NCBI GenBank assembly: GCA_004431415.1
Contig: QPMI01000416.1
Location: 310,001 to 374,000, forward strand
Origin: Cyanophora paradoxa CCMP329
Lineage: Eukaryota; Plantae; Glaucophyta
Length of the DNA: 64,000 nucleotides
Direction: 5' to 3'
The position numbers were made by a program, and so were the translations under genes. The notes beneath the pieces are model-generated. The model saw only the letters and a list, made by a program, of their open reading frames with translations, searched no databases and was not told the DNA's origin. Of this stretch, positions 1 to 28,215 are shown piece by piece (position 1 is the stretch's first letter; every line of letters begins with the position of its first letter).

Positions 1-58
1 GGACGGCGGGCGATCCCAAAGCGTAAACAGGTAATTGCACACGATTATATTCGCCCAT
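1..58 (-). CDS. 5' end of a putative viral gene running off the window (MGEYNRVQLPVYALGSPAV...)
   Basis: ATG at 58 (minus) is preceded by TAGTAAAAGAAGCA, similar to the motif upstream of the other viral genes. The frame is open to the window edge. Confidence 0.3.
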   Translation of the reverse strand, partial: MGEYNRVQLPVYALGSPAV

Positions 59-170
59 TGCTTCTTTTACTAAGAAGGAAAGAAAAATAAACGACTTTCA
101 AGAAGGACATGCAAGATACATGCCTTTCTTATGCATGATCTATGAAAAATAACAATAAACCCATCTCTCT

Positions 171-434
171 TTACATAGGAGCACTCACAGTAATTTCGCT
201 TGCCTTTCGAACAGTCCCCCGATTAAACGCTTGCTCTACAATCGCTTCCTTTGTGAGTGGAATCGGAATTCCAGCAGCAATACACGATTTAACTTCTTTG
301 TCCACAATCTCATCAATCGCGATTCTCGCCCTATTATGAGCAGCATTATCGATCCAATCCTGAACAGAGTAGGCACAGTATTCCATTCCCAGTTTTTCAG
401 TATCAGTTAGAACTACTTGATAGATGTTCGACAT
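171..434 (-). CDS. 87-aa phage-type hypothetical protein, putative fibre-associated/assembly factor
   Basis: LTDTEKLGMEYCAYSVQDWIDNAAHNRARIAIDEIV...IPLTKEAIVEQAF resembles, from recall, small proteins encoded just downstream of C1q-type fibre genes in marine tailed phages. It is co-oriented with and starts ~9 bp after the C1q ORF. Confidence 0.65.
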   Translation of the reverse strand: MSNIYQVVLTDTEKLGMEYCAYSVQDWIDNAAHNRARIAIDEIVDKEVKSCIAAGIPIPLTKEAIVEQAFNRGTVRKASEITVSAPM

Positions 435-443
435 TCTTTTACT

Positions 444-1457
444 TTATGTTGCAGAAATTAATTCACCAGAAAAAATCGTGTAACTCCCGCCATACTCGCC
501 ATATAAACTACCTGTTCTAATATATATTCTAACGGAGTCTCCGGCTACAAGATTTAAATTTACATTGAATAATGCGGGAACATATGCAACACCGACAGCT
601 GTGGAAGCTAGTATTTCAATACTCGATGGATCAGCATTATTAACATGTATTGCAACTTTGGTTTGAACTGTGACGTTTCCAGTAAATGCAGCGAGCATGA
701 ATTTATAATCACCATTAACAGGAGCTGTAAATTTACCTGTCGAAGAATCGAAACAGTTGCCGTGATTTAATATTGTTCGACCATAAGTGGTTATATATGC
801 AGCAGAATTAACTGGTGCAACTAATGCAACAGAAAATCGTGGATGATTAGGAAGTGCAAGATAAGAGTTCGCCCCATTAATTGTAAGACCTTTCCAGTTG
901 TAAGTTCCAGCGACTGCATTCGGTGTTGAATTGGTGGAAGTTTTCACAAATGTAGAAGCGATATTCTCATTATTTCGCTTAATTACTAATTCTGTGTTCG
1001 CCCCAGAATCAATAGTCGTCGTTTTAACTGTCCCAAATGATCCAGCTGTAAGGCTTCCATTGATTGTCGCATTTCCAGTAATTGTCGCATTCCCATTCAC
1101 CCCCAAGCCAGTCCCAATCCATGCCCCACCACTGTAAACTTGAAAAGCCGCGGAATTCCTATCAGCCGGATCGAAAGCTGTTTTATAATCCGCTTGACCT
1201 TCATATAGATTTTCTTTGGTGACCAGCCCCGAAGATATTGCGGGTCGATTCGATACGATCATTTGAGTAGCTTTAACGATTCCACCAGCCTTGTCGGCTC
1301 TGAGTTCTTTGACTCTGAGTATGGAGGTCTCATTGAAAGAATCGGTTTTCGCTGTCTCAGTCGAAGGGAATGACTCGTTTAGATCATATACAGTGTGTTG
1401 CACGTTATGGACAGCACTGGCTGATAAGGAAAACACAGGCGTGAACACAGTCGACAT
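444..1457 (-). CDS. Fibre/receptor-binding protein with C-terminal C1q (TNF-like jelly-roll) domain
   Basis: C-terminal PRFSV...LNHGNCFDSSTGKFTAPVNGDYKF...LNLVAGDSVRI...YTIFSGELI fits the C1q consensus. The upstream GLGVNGNATITGNATINGSL is a beta-shaft-like repeat. Confidence 0.85.
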   Translation of the reverse strand: MSTVFTPVFSLSASAVHNVQHTVYDLNESFPSTETAKTDSFNETSILRVKELRADKAGGIVKATQMIVSNRPAISSGLVTKENLYEGQADYKTAFDPADRNSAAFQVYSGGAWIGTGLGVNGNATITGNATINGSLTAGSFGTVKTTTIDSGANTELVIKRNNENIASTFVKTSTNSTPNAVAGTYNWKGLTINGANSYLALPNHPRFSVALVAPVNSAAYITTYGRTILNHGNCFDSSTGKFTAPVNGDYKFMLAAFTGNVTVQTKVAIHVNNADPSSIEILASTAVGVAYVPALFNVNLNLVAGDSVRIYIRTGSLYGEYGGSYTIFSGELISAT

Positions 1458-1477
1458 CTTTTGATTGTTCTTTATTA

Positions 1478-3253
1478 TTACGTGAGAATATTATTGTTTT
1501 GGAGAGGTCCGACAGCAATCCAATGGAGTTTAAGCGTTCTTTCGTTTTGTGGCACATTCGTATAATTGATCGCCGAATAACAAGTAAATATAGCAATCCA
1601 GGTGAATTTATTTTTGAAACCAACACGGTTCCCACTCACAAATTCAGCGGAGATATATATGCTATTGGTGAAATCGACACTCGTTAAAATAATACTGTTT
1701 TCGAGAGTAGCATTAACTATTGGATCACTATAATATGGGGTAGAAAACGTAACGGTTCCTGATGCTGTAAACACTTGCCCTACTGTATAAACTTGATTAG
1801 GTATAACTACATCCGCTGTCCCCTGTTGCACATATGCATTTGGATTTACATAGCTACCGAAATTCGTGAGCAACTCGATGCTGTGATTGTGAGTAGGTGG
1901 CGAAGTAGGTGTGTTAATCAGGTCATCATAATTTCCACTTGTAGCCACAGCATGTAGGTTTGGTGTGTTTATCAGATCATCATAATTTCCACTTGTAGCC
2001 ACAGCATGTAGGTTTGGTGTGTTTATCAGATCATCATAATTTCCACTTGTAGCCACAGCATGTAGGTTTGGTGTGTTTATCAGATCATCATAATTTCCAC
2101 TTGTGGCAACAGCATGTAAATTCGGTTTAGTAAATAATCTATCCCATGTCCCATTGAAAGGTAGTGTAGATTCTGATATAATTACACCTTGATCGATCCA
2201 ACGAGGTATATAGCTTGTGAAATCGGGAGGATTTACAAGATCATAGTAATTTCCTGTGTATGCTACACTACTCCAAGTCGGCTTCTGAATGATATCACTC
2301 CACTTCCCACTGAATCCCGCCGGCACATCTGTAAGCTCCTTATAGCTCACCTTTTGCTTTGGTATAGACAGCTCAATTGGTGAGAATGCACCCGAAAGGC
2401 GATTTTCAGAGGTGAAATACATGAGGTTTTGACTGTTAGGGAAGTCATCCACGACATTAAAGGTGGAATTCGTGGGTAATTCGAGGCGACTGATTGGGGT
2501 GTTTGGATCTAATACATATTCAGCACCAAGGTGGACAACAGGAAATGTTTGATCATTCGGAGTAGTAACAAAGAAATTAGAAGCATGCACATCACCTGCC
2601 ACAGTTCCACCTGTTAGTGGTAAATAATCATGATCGTGTGAATCAGGTGGATAGGTCGATGGGGGATTAACAATATGCTCCCAAAAATGCTTGTGAACAT
2701 TGGGTAATTCGAGTCGACTTATTGGAGTGTTTGGATCTAATACATATTCAGCACCAAGGTGGACAACAGGAAATGTTTGATCATGTGGAGTGTCGACAAA
2801 GAAATTCGGGGCGTGCACATCACCTGTAAGAGTCCCACCTGTAAGAGGTAGATAATTCCCAAGAGCCGACGTTAATTCGGTATCTGTAACATAATCTTCA
2901 AGAATTGCTGCAAGTTCTGTATCATCTACATAGTTTTTGCTTTGGAGGTAATCATCTGTTACCACACCTGAAAGGGTTGTATTGTGTAAGTTTTTCGCCG
3001 CCATTCTCTGATTGACTTCTAAGGCGCCACCTGTTGTTGTTTTAATCCATGCAATCTCGCATTTTCCGTGATCATCTGTGGGTTGTCCCACAACAGGAAG
3101 ATAGTTTACAACTTTCTCCCTTGTGAACACAATCTTAGGTCTTGCTCCATCATATGCGCTTTGATCCGTTACATTTACTTGAATTGCTGCTGAAAAATCC
3201 GCTTCTTGTCCTATTTCTCCTGGGTGATAATTCGTAACATAGATACTGGGAAA
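1478..3253 (-). CDS. C-terminal part of a large tail-fibre-like protein, in the -1 frame relative to 3211..5961
   Basis: The frame of ORF 1478..3130 stays open upstream (SIYVTNYHPGEIGQEADFSAAIQVNVTDQSAYDGARPKIVF) and aligns with an internal module of the 916-aa ORF (GIYLTSFYPED...AAMQINVTDVSDFDQSRPKLVF). It contains YLPLTGGT, HxH and ATSGNYDDL phage-fibre-type repeats. Confidence 0.8.
   Translation of the reverse strand, partial: FPSIYVTNYHPGEIGQEADFSAAIQVNVTDQSAYDGARPKIVFTREKVVNYLPVVGQPTDDHGKCEIAWIKTTTGGALEVNQRMAAKNLHNTTLSGVVTDDYLQSKNYVDDTELAAILEDYVTDTELTSALGNYLPLTGGTLTGDVHAPNFFVDTPHDQTFPVVHLGAEYVLDPNTPISRLELPNVHKHFWEHIVNPPSTYPPDSHDHDYLPLTGGTVAGDVHASNFFVTTPNDQTFPVVHLGAEYVLDPNTPISRLELPTNSTFNVVDDFPNSQNLMYFTSENRLSGAFSPIELSIPKQKVSYKELTDVPAGFSGKWSDIIQKPTWSSVAYTGNYYDLVNPPDFTSYIPRWIDQGVIISESTLPFNGTWDRLFTKPNLHAVATSGNYDDLINTPNLHAVATSGNYDDLINTPNLHAVATSGNYDDLINTPNLHAVATSGNYDDLINTPTSPPTHNHSIELLTNFGSYVNPNAYVQQGTADVVIPNQVYTVGQVFTASGTVTFSTPYYSDPIVNATLENSIILTSVDFTNSIYISAEFVSGNRVGFKNKFTWIAIFTCYSAINYTNVPQNERTLKLHWIAVGPLQNNNILT
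1907..2125. repeat. 54-bp coding tandem repeat x4 (PNLHAVATSGNYDDLINT)
   Basis: Near-identical units at 54-bp spacing, e.g. ATTTCCACTTGT at 1931, 1985, 2039 and 2093. Confidence 0.95.
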
Positions 3254-5961
3254 GTATCATTTACTCCTACATTGAAATCGCCACTATACACTCCGTTTAC
3301 GATTGGATCCCTGGGTAATCTTACAGCAAGAGTTCCCACCATCGGTGTGCCTGTTTCACCTGTAAACGACCCATTCAGACTAACATAATGATCATTCAAA
3401 AATAGCCTTTCAGGTGTATTAATCGATTGGTAAAGTGTGACCCCATTAAAAACATTTCCGATTGCATTCAATTGCGCAAAAACTGGCTGCTCATCTATTT
3501 CCTCCCATGGGTGCCTGTGGTTACTATTGGTAATCTCTGAATAATCATGAGTGTGTGAATCAGGTGGGAAGGTTAACGGAGGATTTGTGATATGCTCCCA
3601 TAAATGAGTATGGGCGAAATCTGTGATTTGAGATTTTGTGTGAGTATGGTCAAAATCTGTGATTTGCGATTTTGTGTGAGTATGGTCAAAATCTGTAATA
3701 TCTGCTTTTGTGTGTTTTTGTTTTGCTAACCAATCTAAGACAACATTCGAAGTAGGATGATGTGGAAGGTTTGCTTCAATATTCACAGTTAAGTAGTCGA
3801 CTATTAAATTACTTCCATAAATATTACTTGCCCATAGATTACTTGCCCATAGGTTACTTGTCCATATGTTACTTGCTGAAATGTTACTGGTATAAATGTT
3901 ACTTGTGACTGTAAGGTTTGTGTCGTTTTTGATAACAAATAAAGAAAATATATTAGTAAGTTCGCCTTCATCAATGTATCCTTGATGTTCTAAATAATCT
4001 TCCGTTACCACTCTCGAAATATCTTCATTGTGTATGTTTTTGGCGCTTGCTCTTTGATTGATTTCTAATAAACCTTCACCAACACCACCGTTATAATTTG
4101 TTTTTATCCATGCTACCTCACATCTTCTGTAATCATCACGATCTCCTATAAAAGTATTTGGTAAAAGACGCTGCCGACTAAATACTAATTTCGGTCTCGA
4201 TTGGTCAAAATCGCTTACATCTGTTACATTAATTTGCATTGCGGCATCTTTGATATCATAACTATTTGGATCTAATGGAAGTGACGGTATCGGAGGTAAT
4301 ACATCTGTCATCGGGATATCCTCAGGGTAGAAGCTTGTTAAATAAATTCCGGGTTTCGTCTCATATAAACCAAAATTACCATTGATTGGTAAAATCCCCT
4401 CTCTTCTGGGTGGTCTAATGTATAATTCGGCTTCCATTCCTGTGCCTGCTTCTATTCCCATGCGATTAAGGTAGTGGTCATTTAATTGTAATCTTTCTTC
4501 TATGTTAATATTTCTATAAAGACTTACACCATGTTGAAAATCTGTTAATACATTTCCTGCGGATGCGAAAGTAGGTTGCTCATCGATTTCGTCCCAATTA
4601 TGCCTATGGTCTTCTGGTGGAAATTCAGTAGGTATGTTATCTAAATCTTCCCAATTGTGCCTATGCTCTGTGGGCGGAAATCTTTCCGGTTTGTTTAAAA
4701 TGTCTTCCCATTCGTGTTCGTGTGGATCTGGTGGAAATGTTTCGGGTTTGTTAATAATATCCCTCCAATCTACGGTAAAATCGAAAAAACCCGGCTGTAA
4801 TCCGTCTGGTAATAACTCTTCATCTGGTATATGTGGTTGTTCGTAATCTATGTTAGGTGGATTTAATCCATCTGGTAAAAGTTGTTCATCGAAAGGTTCG
4901 TAACGATCATATAACATATGGTTAGGATCAAATCCATCCGGCAATTCTTCCACGTCTTCACATTCTTTATGTTCGAGAGGTATAACATTAATATCTGGTG
5001 CTAAGAGTTCCTCAGCGGGCGGTTTGTAATCTTTAAAAACTGGTTTATTATAAACTTTTTCCCAACTAACTAAATGTTGCCCAAACGCTACCGTCTCATC
5101 CGCTGTGTATTCTCTACCGGGTTGTTTCTTTGGTGTAAGATCTGGTGGATCCCATGGTAGTGGAAATGGAACCGGAGTAGGTCCGTAATGCTCTATGATT
5201 TCTCTTATGGTCTTTTCACTAACGAGCCGCTCCCCATTTGCATAAACATTACTACCATGAATATTTCGCCATTGTCGGGTTCTAATTCCAAGGTCTTTGG
5301 TGTTTGTCTTCAAAGGTAAAAGGTGGCGATCCATTTCGACAAGATCAGGATGTAAATGTATAGCTACTGGTTGACTGGGACTACTGTCGACTGTGATCGA
5401 ATCCTTTTCTTTGGAAGTATCCGGTGGAAGAGTGAAACCAAACAGTGCATTAGTGTTTGAATTGTTGACAATGTCCTTTGGGTAAACATTGTTGGTGTGG
5501 CGAATCTGATTCTCTTCACCATGTGGTGCAATTTGCAATATTTCAGGGATTTGTGCTATCGAATTTGATCCTTCATTATAGATCCGTAAACCGCTACGAT
5601 GAACTCCCTTCTCATCCTGGACATTAAAAACCAAACGTCCGCTATCGTAACGTGTGGGAATATCGGGATGCGTTCCACTTGCTTTAAGTTTCCGTGGTCT
5701 CCTTCTTGTTGCCTTGATCTCCGCAACCGTATTTTTTTTTACATTCCCCAAACTGAAAGCTATACTTACATCTTCTTTCTCTGGGTCTGTTTGATTCACC
5801 GTTAAAGCATGAATTCTGGGATACGTCTTACTGGGTTTATCGGCGCTCTGATCAATTGACGCCGACCCTTTAATGGTGATATTATCAAAGTTAACATGTT
5901 TAGTGTTTCCTTTACCACTACCTGTTATGGTTTGTAAATTTGCTGGATAATTGAAACTCAT
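3211..5961 (-). CDS. N-terminal 916 aa of a large tail-fibre-like virion protein
   Basis: His-repeat fibre motifs (HEHEWEDI, HRHNWEDL, HTHTKSQITDF), an LLPLKTNTKDLGIRTRQWRNIH tail-spike-like motif, SNxx(T/A) pentapeptide repeats and an internal module duplication. Confidence 0.8.
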   Translation of the reverse strand: MSFNYPANLQTITGSGKGNTKHVNFDNITIKGSASIDQSADKPSKTYPRIHALTVNQTDPEKEDVSIAFSLGNVKKNTVAEIKATRRRPRKLKASGTHPDIPTRYDSGRLVFNVQDEKGVHRSGLRIYNEGSNSIAQIPEILQIAPHGEENQIRHTNNVYPKDIVNNSNTNALFGFTLPPDTSKEKDSITVDSSPSQPVAIHLHPDLVEMDRHLLPLKTNTKDLGIRTRQWRNIHGSNVYANGERLVSEKTIREIIEHYGPTPVPFPLPWDPPDLTPKKQPGREYTADETVAFGQHLVSWEKVYNKPVFKDYKPPAEELLAPDINVIPLEHKECEDVEELPDGFDPNHMLYDRYEPFDEQLLPDGLNPPNIDYEQPHIPDEELLPDGLQPGFFDFTVDWRDIINKPETFPPDPHEHEWEDILNKPERFPPTEHRHNWEDLDNIPTEFPPEDHRHNWDEIDEQPTFASAGNVLTDFQHGVSLYRNINIEERLQLNDHYLNRMGIEAGTGMEAELYIRPPRREGILPINGNFGLYETKPGIYLTSFYPEDIPMTDVLPPIPSLPLDPNSYDIKDAAMQINVTDVSDFDQSRPKLVFSRQRLLPNTFIGDRDDYRRCEVAWIKTNYNGGVGEGLLEINQRASAKNIHNEDISRVVTEDYLEHQGYIDEGELTNIFSLFVIKNDTNLTVTSNIYTSNISASNIWTSNLWASNLWASNIYGSNLIVDYLTVNIEANLPHHPTSNVVLDWLAKQKHTKADITDFDHTHTKSQITDFDHTHTKSQITDFAHTHLWEHITNPPLTFPPDSHTHDYSEITNSNHRHPWEEIDEQPVFAQLNAIGNVFNGVTLYQSINTPERLFLNDHYVSLNGSFTGETGTPMVGTLAVRLPRDPIVNGVYSGDFNVGVNDTFPVSMLRIITQEK
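3610..3715. repeat. 36-bp coding tandem repeat x3 (HTHTKSQITDFD)
   Basis: Visible in both the DNA and the translation. Confidence 0.9.
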
Positions 5962-6000
5962 CCCTGGTTACTCTAATAATAGAGATTTATTAAATTTCAA

Positions 6001-6013
6001 TAAAGTAAAGATG
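6001..6013 (+). promoter_or_regulatory. Shared viral upstream motif TA(A/G)(A/G)GTAA...G-ATG (example at the patatin start)
   Basis: TAAAGTAAAG-ATG (6011+), TAAGGTAAAG-ATG (8690-), TAAAGTAAAAGA-ATG (434-), TAGAGTAACCAGGG-ATG (5961-), TAAAGAACAATCAAAAG-ATG (1457-). Confidence 0.55.
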
Positions 6014-7395
6014 CCTTTAAAGGTCGTTTTAGCTTTGTCTGGCGGCGGCGCACGTGGTATTATCATAACAAGGTTGTTAAAAGAAATAGAAACAAGAACA
6101 GGTAAACGCGTTATTGATTTGGTCGATCTTGTAAGTGGAACGTCCACAGGCGGTATTATTGCTATTGGTCTCAATGTGAAAAATCCCGAATTTCCCGATG
6201 AACCTAAATTAACAGCTACCGACCTTCATAATACTTACCTATATCATCTCCCATTGATCTTTGCGAATCCACGGAATATCATAGAGAATGCACTTTTTAA
6301 TACTAAATACGATGTATCACCATTAGAAACCGCTATTTTCTCTGTGACTGGGGAAGCTCTCATTACGAGGGGATGTGTCTAATTGATGGTGCGATATCAG
6401 GTAACAATAACCCAAGTGTTTGTGGTTACAGTCACGCAAAAAAGATTTATGATAACGACGACGATATTATAGTTATTAGCATATCATGTGGTGAGGTTAA
6501 CGAAACCGACGCACCAAATGTGGGTTACTCTTACGAAAGTGTGAATACCTGGGGAATTCTATCATGGATTGCTTCCACATCAGGAAGTCCATTAATCAAT
6601 ATGCTAATGGCTGCAAGTGAATTATCGGCTCTTGAAAAGATGCATGAGTTTTTACCATATAATGATGACCAAGGATACGCGCGATACTACCGTATCTCTG
6701 TGCCGCTCCCGAAAGATATCTTAAATTCTCTCGATGATACTTCAAAGATTCCGGACATGATCGCGGCGACTGAAACGTATATACAAGCAAACGACGCCAT
6801 GATAAATCGACTCTGTGAGTTACTTGTTACAAATTATGAGATTAAGAACCCTATCAGATCTTATGTATCATCCACTCTTAATAACATACCTCCTATCGAT
6901 GCTAATTGGTATCTTCTATCGGATAATGCGTTTACCGCTTCTTCTGCAAAATTCGGAAAAGAGGCATTTAAAGCCCGCCCATCATTAACTGGATGGGAAG
7001 CGAATGCATCCGCCATAAACGGAATATGGGAAACGCCAACTGAATATTTGCAAATTGCTTTTCCATATACATATGAAATCGCTTCTATAATTGCATATGG
7101 ATCAGGTATAACGACTGCGTTTATTAAGACTTTTAATGTTGCGACATCGCAAGATGGTTTAACATGGTCATTTATCAAATATGAGGGTGTAAATAGAATG
7201 TTTGTATGTGAGAATATAAATAATGCTAATAATTCTGGGGATGTATCATATGCTATGGGGTTCCCACTTTCGGTAAATGATGTATTTTACATAGGTTATC
7301 CATTGAGAACACGATATATTCGAATTTATCCATTAGTATATATAAATGCTCCGACTATGAGAGTCGATGTGTCAGGCGCATTTATTAGAAATTAG
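6011..7395 (+). pseudogene. Patatin-like phospholipase fused to a C-terminal F5/8 type C (discoidin) domain; internal deletion plus frameshift at ~6360
   Basis: GGGARG and GTSTG lie in the first frame, DGA and NNP in the second. The usual intervening segment with A(T/S)SAAPxYF is missing. The C-terminus EYLQIAF...FNVATSQDGLTW...TRYIRIYP...MRVDVSG is discoidin-like. Confidence 0.85.
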
Positions 7396-8690
7396 AGCTT
7401 TTCAGTTCCATTTATTGTAAGTTTCTTTAATTCTCTTATAACTTTACTTTTTTTCTTTAATCTGGCTTGTAATAGCGGTTCTTCTGGGACATCATCCGCT
7501 TTTTCGATGCCTTCCTTACGTATTGCCGAATCTATCCGAGCTTCTTCTTTGGCTTGTTCTAATGCATCACCTGTGGGCGCCTCATGATACTCTACACCTT
7601 TGATAGGTAACAGTTCGTGGAAAGCAAACCTTCCATCGACCAATTCGCCATTAGGATTTCGTAACCGAAACTTAAAACCCTCCCTACCCTCGACAGTATA
7701 AACGATTCGCGACCAATTGACACCCTGTTTAGCGAATGGGTTCTTTTCTATTCTCACCCGCACAAACATACCCTTTTGAATACCGTCTAAGTAAGCCATC
7801 GACTTCTTAAACTTCTCATCTTCTAAACCTATGATCTCTCTATAATGCTCATCTGTGGTTTCTGCGGGTTTCCTCTTAGTCGCTGAATGAACAGTATGGT
7901 TATAATTATACTCAATGTCACCCAATACATCAAAGAATCGCGCCGTGTTATTCGCTATGCAATAGTTCGTAATAAGCCGTTTGATCTGTTTGTTAAACGC
8001 TTCAATTCTACCCTGACTCCGATGATCTGCGACATCGCTAATCTGATGGTCGATGAACTTCTTAGCAAGATAGTTAGTAAACATAGTATTAGTAAATTCG
8101 CTACCGCTATCACTTTGGACGCGTGCAATAGGTCGTGGCACTCTCTTTTGTAGCTGTTCGAATGCGGCAAGAGTCGTAATAGCGCTCTTATCTCTCATCG
8201 GAATAATATAACCTGTTCTAAGTGTTGATTCCATAGCCGACATAAACGTATCATATCCGTCATTTTGCTTCTTATAAGCCGGGAAAAACAGAAGATCAAT
8301 AACATAGGTATCGAGAGGCTGCCTAATTGGTATCATCGGGTCTCTCTTTCTGGAAAGAGTCGGCGCGTTAATCTGAACGACTTCCTGTTTATCATACCAT
8401 TCCCTCATCTTCTTATAGTCTTCATCTGGTAACTCCTTCCTCATCGCTCCGAAACCCTTGTAACCGGTGCGCGGATCGTAAAACTTCTTAGCTATCTTAG
8501 ATTCTTTTGTTACAGTCTCAGTAGGCAATGCCTCCGGGATCAGTTCTTTAACTATCTCAGACTTCTTTAAAATTCGTGTGTTTTTCTGTTCTATCGGAAT
8601 GGTTATAGGTAGCATGTTACCCTGATCTTCTTTCATGCTCTTCTTTACGATCTTAGGAATGGGTCTTAATCCTATCTGTGCGGAAGGCAT
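7392..8690 (-). CDS. Retroviral-like (rve, DDE) integrase of Polinton type
   Basis: IDLLF, SDSGSEF and GRIEAFNKQIK supply the D-D-E triad. Also YNHTVHSATKRKP and a C-terminal GMFVRVRIEKNPFAK...WSRIVYTV segment typical of Polinton integrases. Start is placed at MPSAQ (8690) from the upstream motif and to avoid overlap with speD. Confidence 0.92.
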   Translation of the reverse strand: MPSAQIGLRPIPKIVKKSMKEDQGNMLPITIPIEQKNTRILKKSEIVKELIPEALPTETVTKESKIAKKFYDPRTGYKGFGAMRKELPDEDYKKMREWYDKQEVVQINAPTLSRKRDPMIPIRQPLDTYVIDLLFFPAYKKQNDGYDTFMSAMESTLRTGYIIPMRDKSAITTLAAFEQLQKRVPRPIARVQSDSGSEFTNTMFTNYLAKKFIDHQISDVADHRSQGRIEAFNKQIKRLITNYCIANNTARFFDVLGDIEYNYNHTVHSATKRKPAETTDEHYREIIGLEDEKFKKSMAYLDGIQKGMFVRVRIEKNPFAKQGVNWSRIVYTVEGREGFKFRLRNPNGELVDGRFAFHELLPIKGVEYHEAPTGDALEQAKEEARIDSAIRKEGIEKADDVPEEPLLQARLKKKSKVIRELKKLTINGTEKL

Positions 8691-8734
8691 CTTTACCTTA
8701 TTTCCGTAATTTAATTTTTCTATATAATTCATAA

Positions 8735-9166
8735 ATGAAGCGTCCCGCAAGCGAGACTCGGCAAGCGCCCCATCGGGGCTTCCATGTGATGTTAGATTAC
8801 AAGTTTTCGAGTCCACTAATTACGGGAGTGGACAACTTAGAGACCACAACGAAATGGTTAATGCACTTTTTACAAGATATTATACAAGAGCAAGGTATAC
8901 GAGTAGTTCACAAGCATTACGAGATTTTCGATGGTGGTCTTTCACCTCCTGGTTTTACATTAGTTCTCCTATTAGATGAGAGTCATTGCACCGCTCATTG
9001 TTACTCAGACGAGGGCATGTTAGCAATCGATATATTCAGTTGCGGAAGGGAAGCGGAGCGAAAGACATGTAATATATCATCGTTAATAGAAGAGAGGATA
9101 ATAGGTATCTTTGGTGGATCTCCACATACGGAGAGACATAAAGTATCGAGATTTCCGACACGGTAA
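8735..9166 (+). CDS. speD: Prokaryotic-type pyruvoyl S-adenosylmethionine decarboxylase proenzyme (SpeD/SpeH family)
   Basis: GFHVMLD N-terminal motif, LLDESHCTAH autocleavage motif (E-SH) and AIDIFSCG. The length (143 aa) fits the short prokaryotic class. Substrate is not proven. Confidence 0.88.
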   Translation: MKRPASETRQAPHRGFHVMLDYKFSSPLITGVDNLETTTKWLMHFLQDIIQEQGIRVVHKHYEIFDGGLSPPGFTLVLLLDESHCTAHCYSDEGMLAIDIFSCGREAERKTCNISSLIEERIIGIFGGSPHTERHKVSRFPTR

Positions 9167-9215
9167 TAAGTGGTAAAAGAAGATGTAACAGGTTAATTTA
9201 TAGTATTTAAGTGTG

Positions 9216-9567
9216 GTGTAACAGGTGTAACAGGTTCTCCCCAAAGTTCCAAGCCGCCGACCTCCTCCTAGGGGAAAGTTTGGGATGAACCTGTTACACC
9301 TGTTACACATACCATTTTCAGTAAGAACCCATTAAAATAACATAATCTCAGTCTTAAAATAACATAATATACCATAAGTAATACTACGTTATCTTTATTG
9401 TATTATACGCTCCGCCTCCCACACAGCACAGGCGCAGCCGAGGCAGCTTGTCTGACGACTTATAGTTGTTTACATTGTAACGGGTGTAACAGGTCAATCC
9501 CAAAGTTCCAAACCGCCGACCTCCTCCTAGGGGAAAGTTTGGGATGAACCTGTTACACCTGTTACAC
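9216..9567. repeat. Two copies of a ~93-bp hairpin unit (9216-9308, 9476-9567) built from GTGTAACAG iterons
   Basis: Perfect 22-bp inverted repeat GTGTAACAGGTGTAACAGGTTC (9216-9237) / GAACCTGTTACACCTGTTACAC (9287-9308). The second copy is near-identical. Confidence 0.92.
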
Positions 9568-9752
9568 ATAGGAAATACCATTATAATAACAGAAGATCTA
9601 TATAGAATACTAACTTATCTTTCTTATAATACACGCTCCACGCTCCTTACAGCACAGGCGCAGCCGAGGCAGCTTGTCTGACGACTTGTAGCTGTTTACA
9701 ACGGCGCCATATGCGCTCCATAGGCGCAGCCAAGGCAGCTTGTCTGACGACT
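9423..9752. repeat. Direct repeat AGGCGCAGCCGAGGCAGCTTGTCTGACGACT x3 (9423-9461, 9649-9687, 9722-9752)
   Basis: Read directly. The copies are interleaved with the hairpin units in an A-B-A-B-B arrangement. Confidence 0.92.
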
Positions 9753-9937
9753 CATCATCGCATTATATCCAGCGGCACGCTAAGCTTGCCTTGCGCAAGC
9801 GCAAAGAACATTTTTTTATTTTTCGTTGGAATTCCATTATAATTTCATACATATTTCTTGTATAATTAAATACATATTTTTCATTAAATGCATACCCATA
9901 TTATTTCCATATCATTATACACGATAATGCGTAATAT

Positions 9938-10236
9938 CACACATAGAGAAAGCCCGCGTTTTATCAGGAGGCGTGATATAATTTAACTAAGTTTAAAATC
10001 CACCTCAAATACAAGTGATTACGAGAGATAGAGGTGAAATACATCGGAGATACGAGTAAATTAAATAACAGTAAGGGTTTGGATAGTAATTTATAAGAAA
10101 TACGCACATAAAAGACAAGAATAAAGGATAAAATACACATAAATTATCGTTAAATATGCAATAAATATAGGTAAAATATAAACAAAATATAATTAAACTT
10201 TGCCGAGGGATAAAACGCGGGCTTTCTCTATGTGTG
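9938..10236. mobile_element. 299-bp AT-rich unit with perfect 28-bp terminal inverted repeats (MITE-like, or the folded viral terminus)
   Basis: CACACATAGAGAAAGCCCGCGTTTTATC at 9938-9965 and its reverse complement at 10209-10236. No target-site duplication found. Confidence 0.7.
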
Positions 10237-10817
10237 TAGACGGCTACGGCCCAGCGCGAAGCGACAACAAAATACCTCGAGTGCTCGCTCGGGTCATCGC
10301 GAGAATCGAAGTCGAATTCCCTTCGCGTCACGCTGTAACCCCAAGACGCCACGAGAACAGGCAACGTGGGGATAACAATGACGCAGAGGTGCAACGCGAA
10401 AGACATTATGTCAAGCTTCCATAGACGGGGGCTGGTCGCGTAGGTCAGGAACTTGTCTTGCGTGGTTTCGTAGCGTGGTACCGGCGGCGGCTGCGTTTGC
10501 CTCACCGGATCCATGTTAGCTGCGTCCCGCATCTCCCTCTCTTGCTTCGACTTCTGCTGCTCCTTTTCGAGAGCTTCCTTTCTCTGCTCCTCGGACAACA
10601 GAGGCTGGTCCGGATCCTCGTCATTCCGGTTTAGACCAATGAGCAGGGCCTCCACGCGCTGAGCATGCTGAATGCCGGACTCGCGCTCCGCTTGACGCTC
10701 TTTGCGCTTCGCATCTCGCTGCATGCTATCGAGGCAGAGGCTGACATCGATGAGCAAGAACAGCCGTGTCGTATCGCACATGCTCGCGAAGCGCTCCACC
10801 TGCAAGTTAAACCAGTA
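10235..10817 (-). pseudogene. 583-bp duplicate of host coding sequence 20084-20666
   Basis: No differences seen by eye at offset 9849. The translations are identical (QVERFASMCD...RWAVAVY). Confidence 0.95.
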
Positions 10818-11034
10818 GTGCGAATATTAATATCGCACTTACAAGCATCGAATTACAATTCATGCGCGTATCACGCTCAGACAGAGACTGCAGCTGGAAT
10901 CTGCTGCGCATGCCAGACTGCTGGATCCGATGATCCAGAGTTTGCAAGGATATTCGCGAGACCGACTTATATTAATTACTCGGCATATGCATCGATATCA
11001 GAAGGCTTCAAAAACAATTATTAAATTTATAAAT

Positions 11035-11076
11035 GGGGGGGTGCGGGGGGGCTTGCCCCCCTGCTTGTTATTTTCC
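11035..11076. repeat. G/C-run hairpin motif, inverted partner of 16796-16838
   Basis: The reverse complement GGAAAATAACAAGCAGGGGGGCAAGCCCCCCCGCACCCCC matches GGAAATCACAAGCAGGGGGCAAG(CGCTAG)CCCCCCGCACCCCC at 16796-16838. Confidence 0.7.
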
Positions 11077-11781
11077 TGTACTACCGCCGCAGCATCAGCT
11101 GCAGCCGCCGCGCCGCTACCGGTACTGAGTACCGGACCGGTATAGTACGGTACCGGTACTACTAGTAGTCCGGTACCGGTAGCTCCCAGAGCTCCCACCG
11201 CCTCTCGGTACTGTGGTTTACGTAACGGCTGGCGTCGGCCGCGTCGTAAGAAGACTCGTGAGTCGTCACTGACTCGTCAGTCGTAACCGAGCGGGGGACC
11301 GGATCGGACCGGGGTCCGGGGGACCGGCGGGGGTCCAACTCGTCCGAGCCTAGGAGGCTGCCAAGGCTCGAAGGAGGGACCGGTACCGGCAGCAGGGGCC
11401 GGGTACCGGATACTACCGGTAGTACTAGTACCGCAGTAGTACGGTACCGGGAATTTCGAAGTCGATTTTTTATCGGCGGAAAGTCGACGTCGGCGGCCCT
11501 GGGGCCCAGGCTGGGGGGCCAGTGGGGGCCGGGCCCGGGGGCCCGGCGGCCCGGCCCGGGCCGCCCGGCCGGGCGGACTCCGGGAGAGTCGCCGCCGACT
11601 CGCGATCGCCGGATCCGGAGACTCGAATTCCGATGATCCGATCGGGCGACCGTCCGACGGTCGGACGGGCGGACGGGCCCCGGGACCGTGACGGCCCGCC
11701 CCGGGCGGCCGGCCGCGGGCCCCGGCCCCCGGCCCCGACCCCGGCCCCGGGCCCCGGGCCGTGGCGGCGCGTCCCGTTCTG

Positions 11782-11971
11782 CCCGTCAAAACTCGCACCG
11801 GAATAATGCGTTTCGAAAAATTTTGGCTGCTGAGGGGGACAGCACTTTTCGTAGCGTGTTGATATTAATGCGGTCCTAAATTAATGCGTTTTAATTTCAT
11901 TGCAGAAAACGCATTAATTAGGTACCGCATTACTTAATTATAAGTGCGCGCATTACTTAAGTGTTTTACGG
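11782..11971. mobile_element. Degenerate or left-truncated pogo/Tc1-like MITE
   Basis: Right end GTTTTACGG|TA, TAATGCG repeats and an internal palindrome (11866-11892/11906-11932). Same architecture as the 24547 MITE. Confidence 0.55.
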
Positions 11972-12215
11972 TACTAGTAGTACTGCGGGGCCAGTGCGCC
12001 GGCGGGGCACTGCGAGCCGCCGGCCCGGCGCCGGGCCCAGTGCGGGGCAGCGGCCCGGCCGCGGCAGCCGAAGGCCCGAAGCTGGAAAAGCCTGGAATAC
12101 TGGTAACCACTGCTAACCGTTGAACCAGTGGTAAGCGGCTCGAGCTCGGCGCTCGCTCCCTGTCTACCGTGGTACTGTATAGCAGCCTATATATATTAGT
12201 AGTCGCCGGCCTTAA

Positions 12216-15200
12216 TTGCGCTTGATCCGACTGTCGTGCGGGTCGACATCCGACGGGGGCGGTCCGCGGCACACTGCGGCAGGTTCCAACGTTAACGTCG
12301 CCAAGATGGGTGCTGCGCAGGCCAAGTGTTACACCAGCTCCGACTGCTCTGGAACCGAAGCCTTCAAGTCGGACAGGTGGCCGCCGTCCACTGGCCCGGG
12401 CGGCCGGGCCACGCGGGCGCCACGCCGCGATCCAACGAACGATTCCTGATGCATGAGGACGCGCGCGCGCGCGCAGCGATGGAAACGTGGTATCTGTCTG
12501 CTCGAATCCAGCGTACGCGTCCGGAATTGAGAAGGGCGACAAGACGTCGACGTGCATCGCAGCAAAGCTGCTGTGCTACAACTCAACGTCCGTACTCTTG
12601 TCGTGCCGTGCATTAGAGCTCATATCTATACTATGATATGCATCATGGCCGCGGCCGGGCGTGTACATATATGCATACGTCTATCTATCTATCTATATGT
12701 AGATATACGAAGAGATCGTGCTCCGGGCCCGGGCCTCCAAGGCTCGCTTTACAAAGTTAATCCGATCATGCCATGATGATCACGATATCGCGATCGATGA
12801 TCTATGCGTACGTGCGCAGAGACTGCTCAGGCATCCCAACGATTGGAAAGGACGCTGCTGGCAAGGCCGTCACCGCATAGTGCGCGCGCGCCCTCTAGAG
12901 CTAGAATTGACGAAGTCTTTTCGATAATTCAGGACGTTGACGAATATATTGATAATGTGATTTCATTTATCAATCCGATCTTTGAAAGCAATCATTCCAA
13001 CGTTCGCGTCCGCAGTCAACCCGACGGGGTCTCTATTGACGAAGCGATCCGTCAGTGTCCTGTGCGTTTTGATGGCGTCTCCGTGAATTGCGCTCCTCTA
13101 GATTTCTGCTGTTTTTTGCGGAATTCGAACTCATCGGGCGTTTTTCGTATGCCCGGATGACGTTTAGAACGGCACCCTGAGCTACAAGAACGGCGGCGAC
13201 AAGGACCAATGTCATTCCGCCCTAAAGTATGATGACTATCTGCTCTGCTACAACTCAGCGTCAGTGTCCCAATTGCATGTATGGCTCTTCAAGGTGATCA
13301 CGATGCGCTCACATCGGCCTGGGCTCGCAGAGACTGCTCTGGCACCCCAACGATTGGAAAGGATGCTGCAGGCAACCCTGTCACCGAATTGTGCGCGACA
13401 CCCTAGCCTCTGATCATGATACATTTCTTGCAGAGCGTTAACGAGTACAATCTATCGTAATTTAAAAAGATTCATGATCAATCTTAGATTCAATCTTTTC
13501 TAATCAGAGAATCATGTTCGCATGCGCAGTTGGCCAATGAGCTTAAAGCAGATTTGGCCGATATCTACAGCTAATGACACAGCGATCAGACAATGTCCTG
13601 TGCGTGTTCAGTGAACGTTGCGCCAAGTACTATCTATAGTGTTGCGCGGAACTTACGCATACGCTGCTGCATGATCTGTAGATTGGAACCGTGAGCTACA
13701 AGAACGCTGACCTCGACCCCAACGACTCCACAGTCAGCAATACATGCCAAGCAGTCCCCAAGTACATGGCTTGCCACAAAAGTCTGGATTGCGCGAGCAC
13801 GGGAGACGACATCACCTATGTTTTCGGATCGCTCGAACGGAATCCGGAGCTGAACTTCTGCCCGCGGATACGCTAAGCATCCGTGACGTGAACGGAACGA
13901 CCGCGGGGACATGCCATCGCTCGGCCCTCCTCTGCTTCCGCGACGGGCAGTGCAAAGACACCCCAACGGTCGCGAAGGGCAGCGCGGGAAACATCCTCAG
14001 CAAATAGTACGCGAGCCCTCCCGCGGCCGCGATGGTGGTAGCGCTGTTGTGATGAACTGGAGGAAACCGTGCAGCCAAATCGCGGGGATGTCGAACGACC
14101 AGGTCTGGGCGCGCTGTCCGGTGAGTCCGTACGCGTGCTCATACATATGCATGCACATATGCATGCAATCGATCGCCATATTTTGTCGTTGTTTATAAAT
14201 ATAGCGATCTCACGTACATCCTTCGAATTCGTAATCTTAAGCATCTTGCATTGCACAGCTTGGCACAACGGCGTACATGAACGGTTACGAACCCTACGAC
14301 TGGTGTACGCGCGCCAAGGGCACTATCGAGTGTCACAAGAGCATCGATTGCACGAGCTCGGGAGGCGATGTAACCTACATTTATGGGGACCGAGATACCG
14401 ACGCGTGCGCTCCTACTGAAATCTCATGCTCGCGCTCTGACCTTCGTTGTCGTGCTCGCTGATCGTGAGATGCTTCGGCATGGCCGCGCGCGGGTTGCAA
14501 TTATTTGCAGCGCGCGATGCCCAGGACCCTCGGCTAGCTGGAAATTCATGGGCTCGGATGGGTGCAACAAAGCGGCCCTCCTCTGCTATTCCGGCCGCGA
14601 TTGCACGGGCACTGCAACGGTTGGAAGAACTCCTGAAGGATCCGTTCACAAAGCTTAGTACGTTAACGTTCGGAATCCCAATATTAATCAACTTTGTATT
14701 CAAGCTCATCGTCGAAATTAACACTACGGGCGCAGTTACTTGTATGGCCATTCCGACAAAACAATCTACGAGAAATGCCCTACAGGGTACCTAACAGTGA
14801 TCATGATTTCGATATGCATGCCACCATTGTTCCAGAGAATATTAATTGCACAGCGGCGCCGGCCCGCCTGATCCGGACCGCTCGCCATCTTTTTGAAACG
14901 GTCGACAGGACGCTGTCCTTCATGAGAGCACCGGGTGAATTCACTTGGTACGGAGACACCTCGGTATATCAGTCAAACGGGTGCTCCAATTCAGTCAAGG
15001 GGGGGAAGTGCTTTGAGGTTGGTTCAGACTCCATGGCTAGATCTTCAGATTTGCTTTCCCGTGTGCTCTCCAATTGCAAGTCCACTGATGAATGCTAAAA
15101 CTGTGCCTCGCCACGATCAGAGCTTGGACTGCACGTCGTCCGATCCAAGTGAGAAAGACGTGACCTTCGCTTTCGATGCGGCGTCTTGCCCGAAGTCCGC

Positions 15201-16211
15201 CGCGTCCTTCTTGCCCCTTTCGGGCGGTATGCCTCCGACATACGATGCACCCCTGCGAAACTGACGTGTTACGCCGACACGTACGCGCTTGCGTAATTAA
15301 TTATAATTAGCCGGCGGGCCGGGGCTCACACCTTGTGAACAGCTAGCTAGCGCTACTAAGTGATCATCGGATCATTGATTTCGCCACTGCGGCAGATATT
15401 GTGGCACGCCACTCGGAGTCGGGAAAGACTCGTCAGGCCAACCAGTCGACAAATAGTACGTTCGTTCCGCACCGTTTTCTCCCGGCCGCGGGTCCTCATC
15501 CGCATGCGCACGCGCAAGCGCGGTCTAGCCATAGGAAACCTTTTCTTAAGTAAAACATTTGATATATATAATCAATCGTAATGAAATGCGTGCCATGATA
15601 TCGATGTGCGCACGCAGTCAACCGGAGGGCGTCACGAACGAGCAGGCCTGGGCGCGCTGTCCGGTGCGCACGTGCACGCATGTGCATGTAAACTTACACG
15701 TGCAATTAAATCTTATATTTTCTGTTCAATGTACTTGCCAGGCTTGTACTACAAATGACACGCTCATTAAAAATTCCGGTCCGTAGGGCGGCACATTGTC
15801 AGTCAAGGAAACGGGCGGTCAGTGTAACTCAAACATTCACGTTGGCTACGCCTGGTAATTATATATATACGTATTCATGTTCAGCGATATATCATGGATA
15901 AGGTTATAATGCAGCTGTGCATGCGCAGCTACTCAGATGAACGGTGCTACTCTACCCCGACGTACGTCTTTGACAGGGCCAATTGCCCTTCAAACACAGC
16001 TGCCGTGCGTATACGGATCCAGGATCTCATGGCCACCTATATTGAGGCTTGCTACTTCAACGCTGAAGCTTCAACTAATCTTTGCATGCTTCAGAGCAAA
16101 CAAGGCTATTATGCTTGCACACCCAAATCGCAGTGGAACCTACTAGACGAAGACGTCAATGTCGCCGAGGAGGAATTCGAGGTCGGCTGCACTCCCTCGC
16201 GCACACCGTGA
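12216..16211 (+). CDS. Multi-exon cysteine-rich tandem-module protein (approximate limits; may be a pseudogene)
   Basis: Recurring exons LLCYNS, RDCSG(I/T)PTIGKDAAG, CHKS(L/I)DC...D(I/V)TY and (N/I)(D/E)xx(W/I)xxCP. GT donors follow the CP codons at 13062, 13600, 14121 and 15664. One apparent 1-bp frameshift near 13862. Confidence 0.6.
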
Positions 16212-16795
16212 CTTCTCTCGAGCCACTGAATATTAATACGGGAGTGCACGGCGCGTGTCACAGTGTGTGCAGGATCCGGCCTTGGCGGATACCGATGTCG
16301 ACGGCGAGCTCGAGGGCCTCGACAACCTTTGCTTCGAGGCCAGCCCCGAGGTACCCACGATCGCCCTCTAGCGCGTGAATTTGTCTACCCCAGTTTCAAG
16401 TTTAGCTCACTGGACCTGCGCGAACGCTGCGGTATACATAGACCGCCGGGGAGCTGGTCGGCATTCTGGAAGCCTCCTGATCATGAGCCGATGACGACAT
16501 TGACAAATGCCAAATGGCGAAGTAAATTCCAAATCAAATACCCGCTCTAGATCTATTTTTCAGAACCAGCATCCGACTCGGCGAACACTTTCAAACATCC
16601 GAGTTTCGACTGTGAATTCGAAACTCTGAGAATGAGAAGAGAATTCGAATTTTCGAAGGGGGGGGCGGGAGTCCGCGGTTGTACGGGAGTGGCGGGCCAG
16701 AGGGCGTGCGGGGATTAATTTATAAGCAATTGTTCAAGTCATCACTGAGTCAAGCGCTAGCTTCGCCCAGGCCACCGCCCTTTCTCACTTCTCTC

Positions 16796-16838
16796 GGAAA
16801 TCACAAGCAGGGGGCAAGCGCTAGCCCCCCGCACCCCC
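16796..16838. repeat. Inverted partner of 11035-11076
   Basis: See the 11035 entry. Confidence 0.7.
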
Positions 16839-18049
16839 GCCCACCGTGGCCCACCGATGTACGTATGTGATGGAGTCGGGCGGCTGCGGCCGCGATCGGT
16901 CGGCCCGGCCGCCCGGGTCGCGATCGGGCCGCCGGACCGCCCGCAGCCACCGCCTCCTGCGGAGAGCTTCAGAAAAGGGTACACGAAATCGGGGGAGAAG
17001 GGGGTACGGGCTCACGGCAATGGCAGGTCCGAGGGCGGCGGCGGCGGCAGCCGAATCTGGTGACCCTGAGGCGTATGCCCCCGTGGCTCCGGCCACGAGG
17101 GCCGATGCAGCCTTAGCCAGCCAGAGCCCGGCCTGCATTTGGCGGGGTACGTCGCACAAGGAAGGGCGCGGTGCTGGTGTGGGTACACCGCCCGGACAGC
17201 TAGGATCGGGGCGCGGGCGAGGACATCGAAACGGACCATGGCCGCTGGATCAGAGAATCGCACGCCGAGACGGGGCGGAGGGCTGCGCAGGGTCGACGCG
17301 CCGTTCGGGCTGCATGCTAGCGCTAGCTATGTATATATATATATATATATGCTGTGTGCCCTCCACTCGAACCCCCCCCCCCTCTCCCTCCCCGCTCCGC
17401 GGCCGGTTGCCGCTCCCCTGCCTAGGCCTGTCAGAGTCGGTGCGCAGGCCCAGTGAAATATTTCTTGATCACATCATAATCATGAAACAGATATATATTT
17501 AGTTCTAGCTATAGATCTTGCAATTGATCATGAGGCCAATGAGTCAAGCGGGCGACTCAGTGATAATCGATATCAATAATTTTACACCAAGCCGCTAGCG
17601 CTGAGCTCCATCTTTGACACGCTAGTTCGTTTGGCAGGATATTGATATCGATATTTATCTCAAGACATTTTCTAGTTCTATCCGACATCGGTGATCCGAT
17701 GCATTTCATCGATATCCGCTATAACTATATAAAGCAGCTTGCACGATCCGGCTCACAGCTACAGCAGCTTGCATATGCTCCGCTGCAGGCCACGGCATTG
17801 TATAATTAACGGTCGACCACGGCCGCGGCCTGGAGGTCCTTTCCGAAGTCGATCAAAGCAACGAGCATCGTGGCTTCAAAAGAGGTGGCCGTTTTCAGCT
17901 TCGTGTAGTCGCCAAAGACTTCCTCAATCTTATTGAGAATCTACCGTCCCCCCCACGCGTTAGAGCTCTATATATATATGTACCTGGATCTTCGGCGATG
18001 TTTTCAAATTTATTATTAAAGCCGGTGCCAAACCTTTGTTATTGCGGCA

Positions 18050-24000: not shown

Positions 24001-24234
24001 AGCTGGTCGCGAGCTGACGGCGCCGGCAAGCTTGCTCGAGCTCGGCGTGTCAGATGCTTTCGTTTGGTCAGTGTGCGGCTCCTGGTCGGTCGCAAGCCAT
24101 GCTGCAGCTGGAGCGACCAGCCTCATCGATCGGGCACTTACACCAGCTGGCGGCGGGCGCACACGCATGCTTTCGGATCCGCCCACAGCTAGATCAAGAG
24201 GCGCAGGCGTTGCATGTGTAGCGGCAGGCGGCAT
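18050..24234 (-). CDS. Large multi-exon uncharacterised membrane protein (one gene or possibly two; limits approximate)
   Basis: Co-oriented ORF pieces 23722-24234, 23247-23540, 21905-23215, 21424-21708, 20043-21362, 19732-19995, 18934-19278 and 18525-19028, separated by short intron-like gaps. Several hydrophobic helices (STLLALTAILALIMFCII, FALHLCVIVIPTLPVLV, FVFSVALSFWVIFAIASLV). Confidence 0.55.

Positions 24235-28179: not shown

Positions 28180-28215
<36 letters not shown>

What the first reader, a model, noticed from the sequence alone, without database searches (positions are those of the whole stretch)
1..10236. Endogenous Polinton-like virus arm with a bacteriophage-style attachment/entry module and metabolic cargo
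Seen: an intronless AT-rich block with an rve integrase, about 5.8 kb of fibre genes, a lipase-discoidin fusion, a SAM decarboxylase and subterminal hairpins, inside a GC-rich protist genome. Known: Polintons, PLVs and some virophages integrate through rve integrases, and fibres and lipases are recurrent accessory genes. Inferred: this combination (phage-type fibre repeats, C1q plus partner, patatin-F5/8, SpeD) may define an undescribed lineage that formed virions recently, since most ORFs are intact.
Basis: partly seen in the sequence, partly recalled or inferred. Interest (0 to 1): 0.85.

Follow-up and report, generated by a model that had tools for sequence, protein, structure and literature searches.

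The report
Polinton-like virus end with iteron origin
This is the right-hand end of a many-copy DNA element, most likely a Polinton-like virus, inserted in a GC-rich eukaryote genome; its gene mix is already catalogued for such viruses in glaucophyte algae, but its terminal "hairpins" are likely a phage-satellite-style replication origin and one fibre gene pair is shared with bacteriophages.

Summary
Bases 1-10235 (39.6% GC, 99% coding over 171-9166) carry an rve integrase with an intact DDE triad, 5.76 kb of fibre genes, patatin-F5/8 and a class 1b SpeD. The element is multi-copy in the runs laid, ends at 10235, and a 6-bp target-site duplication is indirectly supported.

The "undescribed lineage" claim is not supported. 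Bulzu et al. 2025 (PMC12220804) describe phage-like fibres and patatin-discoidin fusions in glaucophyte PLVs, and tabulate rve in 85, lipases in 89 and AdoMet_dc in 66 of 156 such elements. Two of six genes are broken in this copy: the fibre by a one-base indel that may be an assembly error, the patatin by a deletion of about 55 codons. Capsid and ATPase genes could not be tested.

Two details were not found in print. (1) The hairpins are opposed TGTAAC hexamers around an AT-rich tract. The same pattern lies just 3' of primase-helicase genes in 10 of 12 scanned phage frames and 3 of 3 testable bacterial loci, so it is probably an iteron origin. (2) The 87-aa gene is 42-53% identical to phage genes that follow C1q-tipped fibres in the same order.

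The parts
171..434 (-). 87-aa helical protein, conserved partner of C1q-tipped phage fibres (likely assembly factor or adaptor; function untested)
   Evidence: 42-53% identity to 23 IMG/VR loci and to phages S-SRM01 and DC33; model pLDDT 87.9; no fold match
444..1457 (-). 337-aa fibre/spike protein with C-terminal C1q head (residues 208-334)
   Evidence: Pfam C1q E 2.8e-9; PDB C1q-family hits; joints across the head region in other copies (table 5)
1478..5961 (-). One long fibre gene of about 1,490 codons with phage tail repeats, split in this copy by a one-base indel near 3247 (read as ORFs 3211-5961 and 1478-3004)
   Evidence: PHROG tail matches; phage minor-tail hits; internal module repeat, E 5e-33; most laid contig depth carries the indel-free form (table 4)
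6011..7395 (+). Patatin-like phospholipase fused to an F5/8 C (discoidin) domain; in this copy about 55 codons are missing and the frame shifts near 6375
   Evidence: Pfam; PHROG and NCBIfam profile gaps; Ser-Asp spacing 242 nt; factor VIII C2-like hits
7392..8732 (-). rve integrase, D146-D208-E244 triad intact, no chromodomain hit; may start at Met15 (8690)
   Evidence: model matches the PFV intasome, E 2e-17; shared 5' motif with the patatin gene (I11)
8735..9166 (+). Class 1b-type SpeD homologue (pyruvoyl decarboxylase) with the E-S-H self-cleavage motif; substrate untested
   Evidence: Pfam AdoMet_dc E 2e-12; alignments
9184..9567 (.). Candidate iteron origin: nine TGTAAC/GTTACA hexamers in two palindromic units (9216-9308, 9476-9567) flanking an AT-rich tract (9312-9405, 23% GC)
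   Evidence: context in phage and bacterial loci
9380..9755 (.). 37-bp direct repeats (9427, 9653, 9719) within a 226-nt duplication
   Evidence: D5, D6
9939..10235 (.). Terminal 297 bp bounded by a perfect 27-bp inverted repeat (9939-9965 and 10209-10235); the element ends at 10235
   Evidence: loose ends behind 10235
10236..10241 (+). Predicted 6-bp target-site duplication (right copy)
   Evidence: indirect: a unitig boundary at 20061 in 4 of 4 runs fits a TSD of 6 (or 4) and no other length from 0 to 10
10235..10821 (.). Insertion target: duplicate of 20084-20670, the 3' part of a 424-aa ORF with no Pfam hit

Best explanation
Bases 1-10235 are the right end of one copy of a multi-copy mobile element with an intact retroviral-type integrase, most likely an endogenous Polinton-like virus whose capsid, packaging and replication genes would lie left of the window. 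Shown: the genes, the sharp end at 10235, the copy number and the broken lipase. Inferred mechanism: the integrase joined the linear genome into a duplicated host segment and left a 6-bp duplication. On reactivation, a primase-helicase (predicted in the unseen arm) would bind the opposed TGTAAC iterons at 9184-9567, melt the AT-rich tract between them and start replication, as SaPI Rep/PriRep proteins do. The long fibre and the C1q-tipped spike, with its 87-aa partner taken as a cassette from tailed phages, would form vertex attachment structures. The patatin-discoidin protein would bind and breach a membrane on entry, and SpeD would feed polyamine synthesis. This copy's lipase is probably dead, so it would depend on sister copies.
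For: Domains. DDE triad conserved in 30 of 30, 30 of 30 and 29 of 30 aligned rows. Intasome fold. Pox_A32 in 6 of 7 integrase-relative viral contigs scanned, pPolB in 3 of 7. Single contigs inside the element reach depth about 1,000 against 77-100 for single-copy pieces in X1 (table 8). Other copies end at 10235 with different flanks. TSD fit. Synonymous excess, 23 of 40, p about 4e-5. Glaucophyte PLVs carry rve 85, lipases 89, AdoMet_dc 66 and Pox_A32 139 of 156, plus discoidin-patatin. Origin: 9 hexamers in 1,069 nt against 0.68 expected; the 18-mer lies within 300 nt of the 3' end of a long frame in 13 of 80 viral loci, and 10 of the 12 such frames scanned are primase/helicase types; the full hairpin pattern lies at the 3' end of such genes in 3 of 4 bacterial loci, the fourth being at a contig edge; SaPI5 iterons are TGCAAC(C) around a 102-bp AT-rich core; SpeD relatives in two small PLV-like contigs lie next to primase genes (L058, L063). 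Cassette: 12 of 14 distinct upstream neighbours of the phage 87-aa homologues carry C1q.
Against: No capsid, ATPase or replicase gene is in the window, and no genome is held, so PLV membership is inferred. No listed contig piece bridges 10235 with 31 or more letters on both sides (the list was cut), and run X15 shows no junction signal. The origin candidate does not follow a rep gene here, unlike SaPI origins. 55 of 80 viral matches to the 18-mer lie inside long frames (many look like Gly-repeat fibres), and several of the 12 'other' matches lie upstream of terminase genes, so the motif is not specific to origins; several of the 10 primase/helicase loci are near-duplicates. Only about a quarter of glaucophyte elements list a D5-type primase-helicase (40 of 156), against 49 with pPolB. 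The integrase tree is unresolved beyond one 72%-identical relative (quick tree). The 40 variants are the best-supported of 455, and some lie in internal repeats. No host marker was confirmed.
Confidence: 0.8

Rival explanations
1. A Maverick/Polinton-type element that replicates with protein-primed PolB; the hairpins and the 27-bp internal inverted repeat act as single-strand fold-backs (panhandle or racket) rather than iterons.
For: pPolB sits next to rve in 3 of 7 integrase-relative contigs scanned and in 49 of 156 glaucophyte elements. The terminal 300 nt folds strongly (z = -6.9). The spacers inside each palindrome are 52-56% GC, not AT-rich.
Against: The palindrome arms consist of repeated hexamers that recur next to primase-helicase genes elsewhere. 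Any inverted iteron array folds well in silico. The element ends in TGTGT, not the CT recalled for classical Polintons (recalled, not from a call).
Confidence: 0.12
2. A capsid-less or truncated derivative, a fragment of a giant virus, or a Ginger-like integrase transposon that captured viral genes.
For: No morphogenetic gene is visible; SpeD relatives also occur in giant-virus contigs (L059, L060); the lipase is broken.
Against: The whole arm is multi-copy, with synonymous excess. Fibres make little sense without a capsid. The gene content matches tabulated PLVs.
Confidence: 0.05
3. The 10235 junction is an assembly chimera between a repeat and a duplicated host segment.
For: The flank is a 99.8% duplicate; no bridging piece is listed and X15 lacks the signal.
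Against: In 3 of 4 runs, extra depth ends exactly at 10264 (one k-mer past the junction) and equals 1.06-1.14 times the two-copy plateau. The host unitig starts at 20061 in 4 of 4 runs, as a 6-bp TSD predicts. Window-identical single-copy contigs cover 440-902 in three runs.
Confidence: 0.03

Closest known systems
Glaucophyte (Cyanophora paradoxa) endogenous PLVs of Bulzu et al. 2025, PMC12220804 (sections 11 and 13, Table S6 read)
   Same: rve integrase (85 of 156), lipases (89), AdoMet_dc (66), discoidin alone or fused to patatin (n = 11), phage tail repeat fibres; AT-rich elements in a GC-rich host.
   Different: C1q has no occurrence in that paper's text or its two supplementary files, and no origin or iteron is described in the parts read.
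PgVV-14T / Gezel-14T PLV (bioRxiv 10.1101/2022.07.28.501842, passages)
   Same: A phage-like long fibre and a putative lipase found in virions, proposed for attachment and entry.
   Different: Uses a tyrosine recombinase and TVpol, an alpha/beta hydrolase rather than patatin; no C1q occurrence in the text.
SaPI Rep/PriRep5 iteron origin (PMC9371898 and bioRxiv 10.64898/2026.10.17.759575, passages)
   Same: Opposed hexamer iterons (TGCAAC there, TGTAAC here) on both sides of a roughly 100-bp AT-rich tract, within about 300-400 bp.
   Different: Here the array lies in the subterminal region of a eukaryotic virus, behind speD rather than a rep gene; binding is not shown.
C1q-tipped fibre loci of marine and freshwater phages (PMC3909814, passages; S-SRM01 and DC33 records)
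   Same: A C1q receptor-binding head followed directly by a roughly 90-aa gene, 42-53% identical to the 87-aa protein.
   Different: Here the pair is carried by a eukaryotic integrating element; donor and direction were not tested by tree.
Maverick/Polinton (pPolB + rve) and mavirus-type virophages
   Same: rve integrase, TIR-bounded, about 6-bp TSD.
   Different: No chromodomain hit on this integrase; pPolB, protease and MCP type are unseen.

Membership tests
Polinton-like virus | Double jelly-roll MCP and penton | not testable with these tools
   Not in the window; no genome held; no close relative with flanks found
Polinton-like virus | A32-like packaging ATPase | not testable with these tools
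   None in 1-10235; present in 6 of 7 distant integrase-relative contigs scanned
Polinton-like virus | Integrase (rve or tyrosine recombinase) | tested here: met
   rve with intact DDE
Polinton-like virus | Terminal inverted repeats | tested here: inconclusive
   Right end defined at 10235; left end unseen
Polinton-like virus | 5-6-bp target-site duplication | tested here: inconclusive
   Graph boundary fits 6 bp (or 4 bp) only; indirect, and a substitution at 20091 would give the same boundary
Polinton-like virus | Multi-copy, intronless, lower GC than host | tested here: met
Maverick/Polinton | Protein-primed PolB and cysteine protease | not testable with these tools
   Outside the window
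Maverick/Polinton | 5'-AG...CT-3' termini (recalled, from no call) | tested here: not met
   The element ends ...TGTGT-3'
Virophage (Maveriviricetes) | Virophage-type MCP and maturation protease | not testable with these tools
   Outside the window
SaPI/P4-type iteron origin | Opposed penta- or hexamer iterons on both sides of an AT-rich tract | tested here: met
   definition
SaPI/P4-type iteron origin | Located directly downstream of the rep gene | tested here: not met
   The upstream gene is speD; no primase-helicase in the window
SaPI/P4-type iteron origin | Bound and melted by the cognate winged-helix primase-helicase | not testable with these tools
   Needs the left arm and an EMSA
Class 1b AdoMetDC | E-S-H self-processing motif, size about 120-140 aa | tested here: met
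Class 1b AdoMetDC | Decarboxylates AdoMet (viral homologues may use Arg or Orn instead, PMC9992855) | not testable with these tools
   below the TIGR03330 cutoff (46 against 75.65 bits)
LTR retrotransposon | LTRs with gag/RT | tested here: not met
   The 587-bp repeat is a cut duplicate of an ORF's 3' part; no RT or gag hit

The most novel reading that the evidence does not exclude
An algal Polinton-like virus lineage that replicates from a phage-satellite-type TGTAAC iteron origin in its subterminal region, and that swaps C1q receptor-binding tips together with a conserved phage-derived partner gene. This would give a sequence-defined PLV replication origin and an uncharacterised fibre-assembly family shared across the prokaryote-eukaryote divide.
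Probability: 0.35. Interest if true: 0.65.

Novelty: new member of a known kind. Interest (0 to 1): 0.42.

Why it matters
The element type and its cargo are already catalogued, so the headline is ordinary. What remains is testable. How primase-helicase PLVs start replication has been hypothesised to involve their inverted repeats (PMC11296320, passages), but I found no mapped origin. Here a 380-bp candidate with a defined hexamer can be tested by EMSA once the left arm is read. The C1q plus 87-aa gene pair shows a two-gene phage fibre cassette in a eukaryotic virus with about 50% identity preserved, which points to an unstudied fibre helper family.

Tried and rejected
The left arm could not be reached: no genome; integrase, SpeD, fibre and patatin scans of viral contigs gave no close locus; the metagenome scan gave only 27-34% relatives; the window's proteins are not in the exact-match collection. 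Patatin-F5/8 homologue search: 0 of 1,278 candidates, so whether sister copies have a whole lipase is unknown. No RNA holder was listed; run X20 is only guessed to be RNA and is not used as evidence of expression. The complex prediction of the C1q head with the 87-aa protein was not available: no verdict. Fold and profile searches for the 87-aa protein found nothing significant; the Atlas gave only unnamed phage clusters. The Atlas search of the fibre N-terminus did not complete. Rfam over 1-27000: 0 matches. Host marker: 91 plus 5 host frames gave no Pfam hit; AP2-like repeats seen by eye were not confirmed. Rejected: the 587-bp repeat as an LTR (it is a cut ORF duplicate); the terminal 297 bp as an independent MITE (contigs join it to the upstream AT-rich DNA, and its flanks show no duplication); a specifically cyanophage donor for the 87-aa gene (the best named hit is a Limnohabitans phage). 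Literature searches that found no description of the C1q pair or of a PLV iteron origin. Term searches in PMC10120064 and bioRxiv 10.64898/2026.10.13.758929 returned 0 hits; their supplements, bioRxiv supplements and the Zenodo sequences of PMC12220804 were not seen and may hold this element.
Full report
Observation. Bases 1-10234 are 39.6% GC, against 54% over 10235-26600 and 74% over 26601-48000, and are 99% coding from 171 to 9166. Pfam finds C1q (444-1457), patatin (6011-6382), F5/8 C (6373-7395), rve (7392-8732) and AdoMet_dc (8735-9166). PHROGs and tblastn tie the long fibre frames to phage tail proteins. The integrase keeps D146, D208 and E244, and its model matches the foamy-virus intasome. 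Its only close relatives are one protein at 72% and a fragment at 67%; all other listed hits are 37% or lower, and a quick tree of 48 rows places it no further.

The frames 3211-5961 and 1478-3004 are one gene: a fibre module continues in the second frame across about 3247, and most contig depth in the four runs laid carries one more base there (17,758 of 25,240 in X1). The site is a short homopolymer, so an assembly error is possible. The patatin has its oxyanion, Ser and Asp motifs, but Ser and Asp lie only 242 nt apart and out of frame, and the profiles show about 55 positions missing. It is probably dead. Whether sister copies have it whole was not determined.

Copy number and ends. Nineteen DNA runs of one organism label hold half or more of the words of 6000-10900. 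Single contigs inside the element reach depth about 1,000 where single-copy pieces show 77-100 (X1). In 4 of 4 runs other copies leave the window sequence behind 10235, which fixes the terminus. The right flank duplicates 20084-20670 (587 bp, 99.8%). No listed contig bridges the junction by 31 letters on each side, but the list was cut. In 3 of 4 runs extra depth ends exactly at 10264 and equals 1.06-1.14 times the two-copy plateau, as two short branch contigs would give; X15 shows none. The host-side contig starts at 20061 in all four runs. Among duplication lengths 0 to 10, only 6 and 4 predict that start, and 6 is what rve integrases typically leave (PMC12220804, passage). This is indirect. 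Of the 40 listed differences between copies (of 455), 23 are synonymous against 26.7% expected (p about 4e-5), which suggests purifying selection on the family; some of the 40 lie in internal repeats.

What it is. Of seven viral contigs with related integrases that I scanned (of 22 found), six carry Pox_A32 and three pPolB. Bulzu et al. 2025 (PMC12220804; I read sections 11 and 13, passages, and part of Table S6) have a section on phage-like fibres in PLVs, report discoidin alone or fused to patatin in glaucophyte PLVs (n = 11), and list for 156 glaucophyte elements rve 85, lipases 89, AdoMet_dc 66, Pox_A32 139, DNA_pol_B_2 49 and D5_N 40. A glaucophyte-type host is plausible from this match and from the GC-rich flank with short intron-like stretches (C. 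paradoxa averages 67.6% GC; PMC6704402, passages), but no host marker was confirmed. Fibres and a lipase are virion proteins in PgVV-14T (bioRxiv 10.1101/2022.07.28.501842, passages). Viral SpeD homologues can be AdoMet, arginine or ornithine decarboxylases (PMC9992855, passages), so the substrate here is open. The nearest viral SpeD relatives include small PLV-like contigs in which the gene lies beside a primase gene (L058, L063), as well as giant-virus and phage contigs (6 of 80 loci scanned).

The hairpins. The two palindromes (9216-9308, 9476-9567; z = -8.9) are built of TGTAAC/GTTACA hexamers: nine in 9167-10235 against 0.68 expected. They flank a 94-nt tract of 23% GC. An 18-mer arm was found in 122 or more viral stretches, of which 80 loci were examined: 55 lie inside long frames, 13 within 300 nt of a 3' end, and 12 elsewhere. 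Ten of the 12 such 3'-adjacent frames scanned are VapE, DUF927-Cch, DUF3987 or AAA_25 primase/helicase types; one is an integrase and one has no hit; several are near-duplicates. Several of the 'elsewhere' loci precede terminase genes. An independent scan of bacterial genomes with both arms found 4 loci: three lie at the 3' end of a VapE, AAA_25/DnaB or DUF927 gene, and the fourth is at a contig edge. SaPI origins are opposed hexamers around an AT-rich core, and PriRep5 binds TGCAAC(C) (PMC9371898 and bioRxiv 10.64898/2026.10.17.759575, passages). Barth et al. proposed PLV inverted repeats as primase-helicase origins without mapping one (PMC11296320, passages). I infer an iteron origin (about 60%) and predict a primase-helicase in the unseen arm. 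Against this, no rep gene adjoins the array. Earlier notes of this scan report similar arrays in other genomes; they are unchecked and were seen after this reading was written down.

The C1q cassette. The 87-aa protein is 42-53% identical to genes in 23 viral loci and in phages S-SRM01 and DC33, which lie in tail-fibre regions. Twelve of 14 distinct upstream neighbours carry C1q, in the same order as in the window; 4 of 27 occurrences had no upstream gene on the contig. C1q heads are known variable host-recognition domains of marine phages (PMC3909814, passages). In the runs laid, this copy's C1q head is covered by a single-copy contig while joints skip the head region in other copies, consistent with exchangeable tips. 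The protein folds confidently as four helices with no structural match. A fibre-assembly or adaptor role is inferred from gene order only.

Other papers seen: PMC8502044 (passages) mentions adintovirus-like PolB and integrase sequences in C. paradoxa contigs; bioRxiv 10.64898/2026.06.19.733378 (passages and section 6) has no glaucophyte mention.

Verdict. A real, probably genuinely integrated PLV arm and a new member of a known kind, possibly one of the elements already counted. The candidate origin and the phage-shared gene pair are modest, testable additions. Interest 0.42.

Noticed in passing
window 10236-26600: A 16-kb block of 54% GC between the element and the 74-80% GC host genes, with long ORFs (20043-21317, 21905-23227, 22276-23142) that have no Pfam or NCBIfam hit; possibly another mobile or viral region.
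   Followed up: partly
window 24541-24810, about 24955-25198, and 11866-11932: Short inverted-repeat-bounded units that look like MITEs.
   Followed up: no
window 27000-32300, minus strand: Host frames with several AP2-like repeats by eye and short GC-rich intron-like stretches; Pfam did not confirm AP2.
   Followed up: partly
window 10190-10235 (Logan contigs): A solo 46-bp piece of the terminus lies in GC-rich DNA on both sides in run X15, and the same loose end before 10190 appears in all four runs: a truncated remnant elsewhere in the genome.
   Followed up: no
window 5999-6017 and 8684-8702: A 19-nt motif shared by the starts of the patatin and integrase genes (I11); it suggests the integrase starts at Met15 and may mark a shared promoter or translation signal.
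   Followed up: no
window 9939-10235: The terminal 27 bp is repeated perfectly in inverted form 270 bp inside, so the end can fold into a local panhandle; role unexplained.
   Followed up: partly
L001, L002, L004 (IMG/VR): PLV-like contigs whose roughly 1,250-aa gene next to rve carries an Endonuclease VII domain, with pPolB detected in L001.
   Followed up: no
L154, L161, L191, L137, L262: The same TGTAAC arrays lie just upstream of terminase genes in several phages; they may mark origins between modules or packaging sites.
   Followed up: partly
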